Positions 29,011 through 45,776 of a stretch of 64,000 bases of DNA are shown piece after piece. A program made the position numbers and the translations under genes. Below the pieces are notes generated by a model. The model was not told where the DNA came from. It did not search any database and saw only the letters and a list, made by a program, of their open reading frames with translations. How positions within the stretch are numbered: the first letter of the stretch is position 1; the number at the start of each line of letters is the position of its first letter. Origin of the DNA: Octopus sinensis (Eukaryota); contig NC_043006.1 of NCBI RefSeq assembly GCF_006345805.1, forward strand, positions 47,430,001 to 47,494,000, given 5' to 3'.

Positions 29011-29228
29011 TGGATTGGTCAATCTGGGTTGTCTTGTTTGTGGCTAAACAGTTTATCTACTTCCTCGTAAATTGTCTTTGTTATTAATAGTCAACGTACT
29101 TACAACTATCAAGTATTCACCCTGAATGTATATATATATATATATAACAAAGTGGAGTTGTAGGGTACCGCACGAGTGGGATTATATACGAAAGAAGGTT
29201 TGAAAATGTAATTTTAAAAGATGTTTAT

Positions 29229-29274
29229 TTACTTTACCGGTTTCCACTCTTTAGAAAATGATTGTCAAAAGTAA
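29229..29274 (-). ncRNA. Minimal type I hammerhead ribozyme, U3-A8 core variant
   Basis: ttactt-TTGACAA-t-catttt-ctaa-agagtg-GAA-ACCGGT-A-aagtaa; perfect 6-bp stem I and palindromic stem III. Confidence 0.72.
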
Positions 29275-29318
29275 CATGTAGAAGTTGGTTACGTTAATTA
29301 TTGGTTGTTACAAATTGC

Positions 29319-29354
<36 letters not shown>

Positions 29355-29467
29355 TATTTATATATATATATATGTATATATATATATGTATATATATATA
29401 TATTACGGAGATGTACTCGCATAGCAAGTAATTTGATCTGAGATCGTGTGCTGAAACGAAAACAAAT

Positions 29468-29735
29468 GCAGCGTGGAAGGTGTTTATAAGCCATTTAAGA
29501 AACACACAAAAGCCGTTCGATTCACTTCAACATTTAAGTTTAATTTGTCAAAATATTTTCGTCGCTAAAATCCGCGACCTGTTCACTGACAAGAATGCAG
29601 ATTGCAGCACGGAATTTTGTCAGTGAACAGGTCGCGGATTTAGCGACGAAAATATTTTGACAAATTAGACTTAATGTTGAAGTGAATCGAACGGCTTTTG
29701 ATTCTTAAATGGCTTATAAACACCTTCCACGCTGC
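29468..29735. repeat. Inverted repeat (arms about 120 bp, spacer about 24 bp) with a hammerhead variant in each arm
   Basis: Arms 29468-29592 and 29617-29735 are near-exact reverse complements; (TA)n on both sides. Confidence 0.9.
29616..29664 (+). ncRNA. Minimal type I hammerhead ribozyme, G3-C8 core variant (mirror copy at 29544-29592, minus strand)
   Basis: tttgtca-GTGAACA-g-gtcgc-ggattta-gcgac-GAA-AATATT-T-tgacaaa; 7-bp stem I, 5-bp stem II, palindromic stem III. Confidence 0.72.
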
Positions 29736-30073
29736 CAATTGTATATATATATATACAAGAACTCAAAAGAAGTTGTCCCCCCCTTACTAAAAACACAGGA
29801 ACTGAAGAAACCACAATTACTACTACTTCCTGTCCTGCCAACATGCTGTTAATTAAACCACACACAACACATGCTCTTAATCCCTTTGGATCTAATACCT
29901 CAAGGTAATTTTTTCGTGAACAATCATAAACTCAAGATACACAACGAACTCACAATGTATCGGAGTACTTATTTTTTATTTTTGTACATTTTTATCATTA
30001 TTCTTTTGCAAAAAACAATGCAATTTTCTTTTTTTCCCCTTTCTAATTTAAAAAAACTTTTTAAAAACATAAA

Positions 30074-30113
30074 TATTCTTGACAATTCATACAATGACGA
30101 AACCGGTTGAATA
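30074..30113 (+). ncRNA. Minimal type I hammerhead ribozyme, U3-A8 core variant
   Basis: tattc-TTGACAA-t-tcat-aca-atga-c-GAA-ACCGGT-T-gaata. Confidence 0.72.
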
Positions 30114-30344
30114 AATATATATTTATATATTTTATCAATTTCTCATTTTATTAAAATTTTCTTTCATTGAGCATTCTGCATTTTAAAAAAAATTTTCCTT
30201 ACTTTTCATTTCTCCACGTGCGGTCAACACAACCCCACCAATTATTGATCTATCTATATAATATATATATATATATATTATATATATATATATAGCTATA
30301 TATATATATATATATAATATATATATACATTCATATATATATGA

Positions 30345-45290: not shown

Positions 45291-45776
45291 TTTGCAAATA
45301 CTGATAGGGCACAGAAAGTTTGTCTATGGCCAGCTGGAGGAGGTGTCCTCCTGGGGCTACAAACTACAGTAGCATCCACCCTTAAGGGTTAGCCATATTT
45401 AAATGGCAAATATACGTCACAATGTGTTGCAGCTACTGTTTATAACTCTCTCTAAGATTTATTATTGCTTGTTTACACATTTTCGATATCAGAGTCTGTA
45501 GGATACTGGAAAAAGGATATGTATTTGTGAAGAGAACCTACTTTTCATCGACAACTGTGATTGTCACACGCTGATGACGGGTCAATACCCAGAAACTCGA
45601 GTCTGTGTGTATCATAAGTTGAAGACAGGAAGGATGGCTTCCCTTTGCAAATACTGATAGGGCCCAGAAAGTGTGTCTATAGCCAGCTGGAGGAGGTGTC
45701 CTCCTGGCGCTACAAGCTACAGTAGCATCCACCCTTAGGGCTTAGCCATATTTAAATGGCAAATATACGTCACAAT
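45291..45776 (+). repeat. 133-bp direct repeats with 353-bp period enclosing a hammerhead (retrozyme or pLTR-like)
   Basis: 45291-45423 and 45644-45776 are near-identical (tttgcaaatactgataggg...tatacgtcacaat). Confidence 0.88.
45565..45609 (+). ncRNA. Minimal type I hammerhead ribozyme, canonical core, GUC cleavage site after 45603
   Basis: cacacg-CTGATGA-c-gggt-caat-accc-a-GAA-ACTCGAGT-C-tgtgtg. Confidence 0.85.

What the first reader, a model, noticed from the sequence alone, without database searches (positions are those of the whole stretch)
29150..29274. U3-A8 hammerhead with a downstream motif shared with the 30074 element
This HHR and the one at 30074 share the TTGACAA core and ACCGGT stem III but have different, each correctly paired stems I (ttactt/aagtaa versus tattc/gaata). 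Both are followed by a related terminal motif (ccactcgtgcggt...acaactccac versus ccacgtgcggt...acaaccccac). This is within-window covariation between two diverged subfamilies.
Basis: partly seen in the sequence, partly recalled or inferred. Interest (0 to 1): 0.72.

Follow-up and report, generated by a model that had tools for sequence, protein, structure and literature searches.

The report
Penelope retrotransposon tails with variant hammerheads
These are two dead end-pieces of Penelope-type jumping genes, each carrying an already described variant (U3-A8) of the small hammerhead self-cutting RNA motif that is predicted, but not shown, to cut; it is an ordinary new example of a kind first reported in 2014.

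Summary

They are the 3' ends of two different Penelope-like retrotransposon (PLE) families. Both copies are 5'-truncated and lie head-to-head in one (TA)n microsatellite. Longer copies of both families elsewhere in the genome encode a reverse transcriptase followed by a GIY-YIG endonuclease.

The motif is the minimal, dimer-type hammerhead of PLE pseudo-LTRs, with the U3-A8 core pair replacing C3-G8. Cervera and de la Pena described this variant in 2014. Hammerhead identity rests on three results:
- The core-plus-ACCGGU pattern has 2022 matches in the genome against 31 for the reversed control.
- At least four families with unrelated helix I and helix II sequences keep both helices paired.
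- A homologous pair of ~355-nt repeat families differs by a C3-G8 to U3-A8 swap.

The shared downstream motif is the optional PLE "tail". Both families have long (tailed) and short (tail-less) 3' ends.

Caveats:
- Both window copies carry private mutations inside the motif.
- Family B's own form has GAAAA, one A more than any hammerhead core.
- Cleavage is untested.
- Insertion 5' ends do not pile up at the predicted cut site.

This scan has noted the same kind before on other DNA (73 notes in at least 12 genomes). Novelty is low.

The parts
29147..29325 (-). Family-A PLE 3' end, 5'-truncated (about 180 nt), flanked by (TA)n on both sides. The 5' limit is approximate (29325-29335) because the family sequence itself is TA/TG-rich there.
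   Evidence: 47 scored genome matches at 88-100% identity out of 2183 first-look candidates. The 3' end ...CCACTTTGT is sharp and followed by (TA)n. The 5' ends are variable.
29229..29274 (-). Minimal hammerhead motif, U3-A8 type, private variant. Parts: helix I 29274-29269 with 29234-29229; core UUGACAA 29268-29262; helix II region 29261-29245; GAA 29244-29242; palindrome ACCGGU 29241-29236; A17 at 29235. The predicted cut lies between 29235 and 29234.
   Evidence: Unique in the genome. Compared with the family form it has U>A, a loop C>U and one extra G.
29147..29187 (-). PLE 'tail' of family A, the optional terminal extension that holds CCACUCGUGCGGU...ACAACUCCAC.
   Evidence: of 49 family-A copies in held loci, 34 have the tail and 15 lack it. 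In 6 of the 15, (TA)n starts directly after ...CTTTCGT.
29757..30250 (+). Family-B PLE 3' end, 5'-truncated (about 495 nt), flanked by (TA)n.
   Evidence: 43 scored matches out of 1334 first-look candidates. The full element L061 has RVT_1 and GIY-YIG. The 3' end ...TTATTGATC is followed by (TA)n.
30074..30113 (+). Minimal hammerhead motif, U3-A8 type, private variant. Parts: helix I 30074-30078 with 30109-30113; core 30079-30085; helix II 30086-30098; GAA 30099-30101; ACCGGU 30102-30107; U17 at 30108. The predicted cut lies between 30108 and 30109.
   Evidence: Unique in the genome. The family form has G10.1 and GAAAA.
30204..30250 (+). PLE 'tail' of family B.
   Evidence: of 38 family-B copies, 28 have the tail and 10 lack it. 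In 7 of the 10, (TA)n starts directly after ...CCTTACT.
29326..29420 (.). (TA)n/(TG)n microsatellite, the target of the insertions. Further (TA)n runs lie at about 29128-29146, 29742-29756 and 30251-30340.
   Evidence: Every family copy examined ends in (TA)n.

Best explanation
Window 29147-~29325 (- strand) and ~29757-30250 (+ strand) are 5'-truncated 3' ends of two different Penelope-like retrotransposon (PLE) families inserted head-to-head into one (TA)n microsatellite, and each carries a minimal hammerhead motif without a closed helix III and with a U3-A8 core pair that would likely cleave only as a dimer.

Shown:
- Repeat membership and element boundaries.
- The RT then GIY-YIG coding capacity of longer copies.
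- The pseudo-LTR / partial-tandem layout.
- The (TA)n target.
- Two alternative 3' ends, with and without the tail.
- Conservation of the core boxes and pairing of helices I and II across families whose other sequence does not align.

Inferred from the published PLE model:
- In a transcript holding two copies, or between two transcripts, the palindrome ACCGGU forms an intermolecular helix III. Each core would then cut after N17 (GUA, GUU or GUC).
- The element's own protein possibly helps, as reported for the Anolis PLE.
- The tail downstream is likely where reverse transcription starts and what the endonuclease recognises.

The two window copies are dead insertion remnants with private mutations. 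Any function belongs to the family masters, not to this locus.
For: 1. Element identity.
- L061 has this layout: (TA)n, truncated pseudo-LTR with the motif, ORF (frameshifted; RVT_1 34.6 bits against a cutoff of 29.6; GIY-YIG 23.5 against 22.6), 3' UTR, motif, tail, (TA)n.
- Family A copy L072 has GIY-YIG at 23.9 bits and RVT_1 at 20.5 bits (below cutoff), followed by a ~1.9-kb 3' UTR, the motif and the tail.
- The A and B endonuclease regions share 114 of 200 residues.
- Both have a C-x4-C-x2-C linker.

2. Not chance.
- TTGACAA-N7-30-GAAACCGGT has 2022 genome matches against 31 for the reversed control.
- The GAAAA form has 515 against 13.

3. Covariation.
- Helix I strands are UUACUU/AAGUAA (A), UAUUC/GAAUA (B), CAUACG/CGUAUG (D) and AUAAG/CUUAU (E).
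- Helix II also differs in each family.
- In register, the first five helix I positions are paired in 176/185 (A1), 27/30 (A2), 28/30 (A3), 197/200 (B), 49/50 (D) and 5/5 (E) cells. Slid by 1-3 positions, pairing falls to 0-60%, except family D slid by 2 (88%), whose helix alternates purine and pyrimidine.
- On a covariance-model alignment of 62 matches (24 distinct rows), 90.3% of cells pair against 66.0 +/- 2.2 in shuffles (0 of 500 reach it). All 10 pairs change on both sides. Slid controls give 21-56%. That alignment was fitted to the model structure.

4. The 3-8 pair.
- Of the 21 distinct rows that cover both positions, 16 are U-A, 4 are C-G and 1 is U-G.
- The U3-A8 family D and the C3-G8 family at window 45571 are homologous outside the ribozyme: 97 nt at 74% identity, E 6.7e-12, at the same distance upstream.

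5. N17 is A, U or C in the A1, A2 and A3 subfamilies. It is G in only 5 of 101 copies.

6. Cofold predicts the double-hammerhead fold for the B and D dimers.

7. Outside the core boxes and the tail motif, the A and B tails share only short AT-rich words.

8. Literature.
- U3-A8 minimal hammerheads in PLE pseudo-LTRs, and pairs 100-700 bp apart on opposite strands (PMC4209133; passages and section 5 read).
- Hammerheads universal in C-terminal EN+ PLEs, the (TA)n bias and the 30-40-bp tail (PMC8557442; passages).
- Tail equals the stretch between two RT start sites, and a protein-assisted hammerhead (PMC11167929; main text read).
Against: - No cleavage data exist for these sequences.
- Family B's own form has one A too many between A14 and A15.1. 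That extends the palindrome to AACCGGUU and would pair U17.
- Family A's own form has an unpaired U before G12.
- For A1 and A3, the predicted minimum-energy dimer prefers a different pairing (5' strand of helix I with 3' strand of helix II).
- Rfam gives no hammerhead hit even at E <= 10. The same is true of the canonical-core minimal hammerhead at 45571 and of family D, so this says little.
- Insertion 5' ends do not pile up at the predicted cut site. For B, 0 of 47 rows (41 distinct places) start there; for A, 1 of 44 rows (42 distinct) does.
- Within families the variants look like random decay. Among 75 exact family-D matches, only N7 varies (3 of 75), and positions 3 and 8 never do.
- Published minimal PLE hammerheads cleave poorly in vitro (PMC4209133). 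Hammerhead mutants did not affect insertion in vitro in the Anolis PLE, and no RNA-seq ends were found at its cut site (PMC11167929).
Confidence: 0.8

Rival explanations
1. The motif descends from a hammerhead, but in these families it no longer cuts. It would be kept as a folded landmark for the element's protein (binding or positioning near the reverse-transcription start), or simply carried along.
For: - Family B spread to at least 515 copies with an extra core nucleotide.
- Family A has an odd U before G12.
- No excess of insertion 5' ends lies at the cut site.
- In the Anolis PLE, hammerhead mutants did not change insertion in vitro, and the ribozyme needed the protein (PMC11167929).
- Minimal PLE hammerheads have low in vitro activity (PMC4209133).
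Against: - The exact catalytic boxes are kept across families whose flanks do not align.
- The 3-8 positions always form a Watson-Crick pair, and they swap C-G to U-A between homologous families.
- N17 avoids G.
- Family D is a textbook core with GUC and occurs in ~358-nt tandems, like the self-cleaving retrozymes.
Confidence: 0.14
2. The two window elements are non-autonomous retrozyme-type repeats (small circular-RNA elements) and not ends of protein-coding PLEs.
For: - A related U3-A8 family (D) does occur as ~358-360-nt tandems with no ORF seen.
- Most A and B copies are short.
Against: - The A and B sequences continue upstream, in longer copies, into RT/GIY-YIG ORFs.
- Their 5' ends are spread from 30 to more than 1500 nt upstream of the core, as for 5'-truncated retrotransposition.
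- No tandem unit-length spacing was seen for A or B.
Confidence: 0.04
3. The resemblance is chance: AT-rich repeat sequence that happens to fit a loose hammerhead descriptor.
For: - There is no Rfam hit.
- The tail word alone is at chance level.
Against: - The genome has 2022 matches against 31 control matches.
- The descriptor gives 3 window hits against 0.02 in shuffles.
- Helices covary in at least 4 families.
Confidence: 0.02

Closest known systems
U3-A8 minimal hammerheads in the pseudo-LTRs of Cercyon Penelope-like elements of Schistosoma mansoni (Cervera and de la Pena 2014, PMC4209133; abstract, section 5 and passages read)
   Same: - The core covariation is U3-A8 in place of C3-G8.
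- There is no closed helix III; the 15.2-16.2 positions are palindromic, for dimers.
- An unpaired nucleotide follows A9 (family A).
- The motif sits in the PLE flanking repeat.
- There are thousands of mostly solitary copies.
- Pairs lie on opposite strands a few hundred bases apart.
   Different: - The host genome and PLE families are different.
- Helix III here is a 6-nt palindrome, ACCGGU.
- Family A has an extra U before G12, and family B an extra A after A14. I did not see either feature in what I read of that paper. Its figures and supplements were not seen.
C-terminal EN+ PLEs with a CX2-5CxxC linker and (TA)n insertion bias (Neptune, Nematis and Hydra clades; Craig et al. 2021, PMC8557442; passages read)
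   Same: - The ORF is RT then GIY-YIG.
- A C-x4-C-x2-C linker lies before the endonuclease.
- Copies form pseudo-LTR partial tandems and inverted 5'-truncated partners.
- A 30-40-bp tail is present at only some ends.
- Insertions are in (TA)n.
- A hammerhead is present.
   Different: The clade was not assigned here, because no RT phylogeny was made. Family A has an unusually long (~1.9 kb) 3' UTR before the motif.
Poseidon PLE of Anolis carolinensis, PAc (Frangieh et al. 2024, PMC11167929; main text read)
   Same: - A hammerhead lies roughly 100 nt upstream of the insertion 3' end.
- The tail is bounded by two alternative 3' ends.
- The terminal region is AC-rich.
- The target is AT-rich.
   Different: - PAc has a C3-G8 core, and its hammerhead overlaps the ORF start.
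- Here the ORF starts about 30 nt after the tail end.
- The biochemistry was done for PAc only.
Animal non-LTR retrozymes (Cervera and de la Pena 2020, PMC7229834, passages read; Li et al. 2026 bioRxiv 10.64898/2026.07.22.740005, abstract and outline only)
   Same: Family D (not in the window) and the canonical family at window 45571 are ~355-nt tandem units, each with one type-I hammerhead.
   Different: The two elements of this finding are tails of coding PLEs, not tandem unit-length repeats.

Membership tests
Hammerhead ribozyme (minimal, PLE type) | Core boxes N3-U4-G5-A6-N7-N8-A9 and G12-A13-A14, with positions 3 and 8 able to pair | tested here: met
   UUGACAA and GAA are present in both window copies and in families A, B, D and E. 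Positions 3-8 are U-A in place of C-G, a published natural variant. Family B's own form has one extra A after A14, and family A's own form has an extra U before G12.
Hammerhead ribozyme (minimal, PLE type) | A15.1-U16.1 pair followed by N17 = A, C or U | tested here: met
   N17 is A (A1), U (A2, B) or C (A3, D). It is G in 5 of 101 copies.
Hammerhead ribozyme (minimal, PLE type) | Helices I and II flank the core and stay paired through sequence change | tested here: met
   90.3% of cells pair against 66% in shuffles (0 of 500), and all 10 pairs change on both sides. The alignment was fitted to the model, and most family-A copies fell below its threshold.
Hammerhead ribozyme (minimal, PLE type) | Helix III replaced by a palindrome that can pair between two copies | tested here: met
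   ACCGGU in A and D, AACCGGUU in B. Cofold gives the intermolecular helix for all five families folded. The full double-hammerhead fold appears for B and D only.
Hammerhead ribozyme (minimal, PLE type) | Site-specific self-cleavage | not testable with these tools
   Only assembled contigs of public runs were available. Indirect test: insertion 5' ends at the cut site in 0 of 47 (B) and 1 of 44 (A) rows.
Hammerhead ribozyme (Rfam models) | Score against Rfam hammerhead covariance models | tested here: not met
   No hit at gathering score or at E <= 10. The control shows the models are blind to this architecture: the canonical-core minimal hammerhead at 45571 and family D also give no hit.
Penelope-like element, EN+ | [quoted passage not shown] | tested here: met
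   B (L061): RVT_1 34.6 bits and GIY-YIG 23.5 bits, both above cutoff. A (L072): GIY-YIG 23.9 bits above cutoff, RVT_1 20.5 bits below cutoff, ORF 5'-truncated. No telomerase-like RT phylogeny was done.
Penelope-like element, EN+ | Pseudo-LTR partial tandems, inverted 5'-truncated partners, optional 30-40-bp tail | tested here: met
   L061 layout. Many inverted pairs. Tailed and tail-less ends.
Non-LTR retrozyme | ORF-less unit-length tandem repeats, each with a hammerhead | tested here: not met
   The A and B copies are 5'-truncated tails of coding elements. The feature is met only by family D elsewhere in the genome (spacing 358-360 nt).

The most novel reading that the evidence does not exclude
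Family B's master hammerhead, with an extra A that lengthens the dimer palindrome to AACCGGUU and pairs the cleavage-site U17, is a working natural core variant or a built-in off-switch that dimer geometry releases. Alternatively, its spread to more than 500 copies shows in vivo that a PLE can proliferate without an active ribozyme.
Probability: 0.25. Interest if true: 0.45.

Novelty: new member of a known kind. Interest (0 to 1): 0.25.

Why it matters
It adds one more animal genome in which the U3-A8 hammerhead is the dominant PLE ribozyme, with thousands of copies and at least four families.

It also supplies a clean natural comparison. Homologous ~355-nt repeat families differ by a C3-G8 to U3-A8 swap, and two PLE masters carry one extra junction nucleotide each. 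These are convenient substrates for asking whether PLE hammerheads must cut for the element to spread. The 2024 in vitro work left that question open.

The locus itself has no function.

Tried and rejected
- Rfam: no hammerhead hit. Controls show the models also miss a canonical-core minimal hammerhead, so the blank is uninformative.
- Public runs: no RNA holder listed. All 24 runs are Logan contigs, and their RNA status is a guess.
- Laying contigs of 4 runs on L061: cover across most of the element, but no usable starts or ends. It only confirmed the 3' end ...TTATTGATC followed by (TA)n.
- Fixed 5' boundary of short copies: rejected. The ends are spread over 30-1541 nt. An earlier impression from medians was an artefact.
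- Within-family 3-8 covariation: none. All 75 exact family-D matches are U3/A8.
- Subfamily status of the window variants: rejected. Each is unique in the genome.
- Stem-loop in the tail (GUGCGGU with ACYCCAC), judged by eye on the sequences. A1, A3 and B give 6 of 7 pairs with one C.C mismatch, and the only change is one-sided (C to U). A2 gives 4 of 7. Not supported.
- MAFFT alignments across families mis-register helix II and the 3' strand. A covariance model was used for the pair counts. Most family-A copies fell below E = 1 with that model.
- The Lunse, Weinberg and Breaker 2017 paper on dimeric PLE hammerheads is not held. Only its title was seen, in reference lists. Its content is recalled, not read.
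- Supplements and figures of PMC4209133 were not seen. They may show core variants like the extra nucleotides described here.

Full report
**What is at the coordinates**

On the - strand, the sequence reads uuacuu-UUGACAA-(17 nt)-GAAA-CCGGU-A-aaguaa from 29274 to 29229. On the + strand, uauuc-UUGACAA-(13 nt)-GAAA-CCGGU-U-gaaua runs from 30074 to 30113. A related motif lies at 30211-30239, and the element ends at 30250, again against (TA)n.

- The joint pattern occurs twice in the window and in none of 100 shuffles.
- A fuller descriptor also asks for helix I, helix II, a palindromic helix III and a non-G N17. It finds three places in the window: these two and a canonical one at 45571. Shuffles gave a mean of 0.02.

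**What the two elements are**

Each is one copy of a high-copy dispersed repeat of the 2.72-Gb genome.
- Family A has 2183 first-look candidates.
- Family B has 1334.
- The scored copies are 88-100% identical.

All copies share a sharp 3' end followed by (TA)n. Their 5' ends are spread from 30 to more than 1500 nt upstream of the motif. This is the signature of 5'-truncated retrotransposition.

Longer family-B copies run upstream into an ORF. In L061 the order is: (TA)n, truncated repeat with the motif, ORF of about 3.8 kb (frameshifted), 3' UTR, motif, terminal motif, (TA)n. The ORF has RVT_1 at 34.6 bits and GIY-YIG at 23.5 bits, both above Pfam cutoffs.

A longer family-A copy (L072) has GIY-YIG at 23.9 bits and a weak RVT_1 at 20.5 bits, below cutoff. 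A 1.9-kb 3' UTR, the motif and the tail follow.

The two endonuclease regions share 114 of 200 residues. Both show a C-x4-C-x2-C linker. RT followed by a C-terminal GIY-YIG, pseudo-LTR partial tandems, inverted truncated partners and (TA)n targeting are the published marks of EN+ Penelope-like elements (PMC8557442, passages).

So the window holds two unrelated insertions, from two PLE families, lying head-to-head in one microsatellite. A 268-nt palindrome sits between them.

**Is the motif a hammerhead?**

The core boxes match the hammerhead consensus except for positions 3 and 8. These are U and A in place of C and G, so the known 3-8 Watson-Crick pair is kept.

Genome-wide counts:
- UUGACAA-N7-30-GAAACCGGU has 2022 matches against 31 for the reversed control.
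- The GAAAA form has 515 against 13.

The matches fall into families with unrelated helices:

| Family | Sequence as read |
|---|---|
| A1, A2, A3 | UUACUU ... AAGUAA; helix II CUUUU/AAGAG or CUUUUU/AAAAAG |
| B | UAUUC ... GAAUA; helix II GUCAU/AUGAC |
| D | CAUACG-UUGACAA-GAGG-CAAUAA-CCUC-GAAA-CCGGU-C-CGUAUG |
| E (singleton) | AUAAG ... CUUAU |

Pairing tests:
- In register, helix I is 90-100% paired in every family. Slid by 1-3 positions, pairing falls to 0-60%. The exception is D slid by 2 (88%), whose helix alternates purine and pyrimidine.
- A covariance model seeded on family D pulled in B, E, some A copies and four canonical C3-G8 motifs from the held DNA.
- On that alignment (62 matches, 24 distinct rows), 90.3% of cells pair against 66.0% in shuffles (0 of 500). 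All 10 pairs change on both sides. Slid controls give 21-56%.
- That alignment was fitted to the structure, and most family-A copies fell below the threshold.

Other supporting points:
- N17 is A, U or C in the three A subfamilies, U in B and C in D. It is G in 5 of 101 copies.
- Of the 21 distinct aligned rows that cover both positions 3 and 8, 16 are U-A, 4 are C-G and 1 is U-G.
- The U3-A8 family D and the C3-G8 family at window 45571 are homologous outside the ribozyme: 97 nt at 74% identity, at the same distance upstream. The swap is therefore a true compensatory change between relatives.
- Cofold predicts the double-hammerhead fold for the B and D dimers. For A1 and A3 it prefers another pairing.

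**The shared downstream motif**

Both families have two alternative 3' ends.
- In the long form, the element ends with a 36-47-nt stretch. It holds CCAC(UC)GUGCGGU...ACAAC(U/C)CCAC.
- In the short form, (TA)n starts directly where that stretch would begin.
- Among copies in held loci, family A has 34 with and 15 without the stretch, and family B has 28 with and 10 without. The primary loci were selected with the tail in the query, so the tailed share is inflated. The tail-less copies are mostly the unselected inverted partners.

This is the "tail" described for PLEs: a 30-40-bp extension present at only some ends (PMC8557442, figure 2 legend). In the Anolis element it corresponds to the stretch between two reverse-transcription start sites in an AC-rich region. 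In Drosophila virilis Penelope it is needed for endonuclease recognition (PMC11167929, main text).

Outside the core boxes and this tail, the A and B tails share only short AT-rich words. Both features therefore appear to be held by selection on the masters.

**What does not fit neatly**

- Both window copies are private variants, each unique in the genome.
- Family B's own form has GAAAA. With helix I fixing the register, this is one A too many between A14 and A15.1. It makes the palindrome AACCGGUU, which would pair U17.
- Family A's own form has a U on each side of helix II. The one after A9 is usual in PLE minimal hammerheads (PMC4209133). I did not see the one before G12 described.
- By coincidence, the private changes in both window copies restore a three-nucleotide GAA junction.
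- Insertion 5' ends do not pile up at the predicted cut: 0 of 47 rows for B (41 distinct places) and 1 of 44 rows for A (42 distinct).
- No raw RNA reads were available.

**Comparison with what is known**

- Cervera and de la Pena (2014) defined minimal, helix-III-less hammerheads in PLE flanking repeats.
  - They reported the U3-A8 covariation in Schistosoma mansoni, with about 1300 hits.
  - They noted pairs on opposite strands 100-700 bp apart.
  - They found only low in vitro activity, and only as dimers.
- Frangieh et al. (2024) showed for one PLE that the hammerhead needs the protein and is dispensable for insertion in vitro.
- A full-text search for "U3-A8" with "hammerhead" returned only the 2014 paper. 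A search for hammerhead ribozyme, octopus and retrozyme (at least two of the three terms) listed no title about hammerheads in such genomes.
- This scan has already noted the same kind on other DNA: 73 notes in at least 12 genomes.

**Verdict**

- The finding is a new member of a known kind.
- Interest is low to moderate. It rests mainly on the extra-nucleotide masters and on the natural C3-G8/U3-A8 pair of homologous families, which could serve as test material.

Noticed in passing
window 29468-29735: A near-perfect 268-nt palindrome lies in the (TA)n between the two PLE tails. Its arms are 29468-29504/29699-29735 and 29534-29569/29639-29674, 97% complementary. Rfam gives only sub-threshold miRNA-hairpin scores (mir-1295, 41 bits against a gathering score of 100).
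   Followed up: partly
window 45563-45611 (+), unit about 45291-45776: A canonical C3-G8 minimal hammerhead reads CACACG-CUGAUGA-C-GGGU-CAAU-ACCC-A-GAA-ACUCGAGU-C-UGUGUG. It sits in a partial tandem of a ~353-nt unit (two 133-nt stretches, 94.7% identical). Rfam gives no hit even at E <= 10. The unit is homologous to the U3-A8 family D over 97 nt (74% identity, E 6.7e-12).
   Followed up: partly
L064, L065, L066 (G000:C1:72631200-72632600, 95730900-95732300, 112082200-112083600): Family D is a textbook-core U3-A8 hammerhead with a GUC site, in direct tandems spaced 358-360 nt, like a retrozyme. It has 75 exact core matches in the genome, and only N7 varies (3 of 75).
   Followed up: partly
L033:799-847(-), L033:1156-1206(-), L010:1913-1961(-): Further canonical C3-G8 minimal hammerheads, with palindromic helix III (ACUCGGGU, ACUGCAGU), lie within 1 kb of family A and B copies. 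The covariance model found them.
   Followed up: no
L126:1461-1588 (G000:C22:20284110-20287197): This is the one family-A copy whose 5' end lies exactly at the base after the predicted cleavage site. It is joined head-to-head to an inverted partner. It is a single case among 44 rows.
   Followed up: no
L061:5090-5130 (- strand): In the partial tandem, the tail end ...TTATTGATC is followed directly by the element's 5' UTR, and the ATG comes about 30 nt later. The words cucuaccucac occur both there and just after the ORF stop.
   Followed up: no
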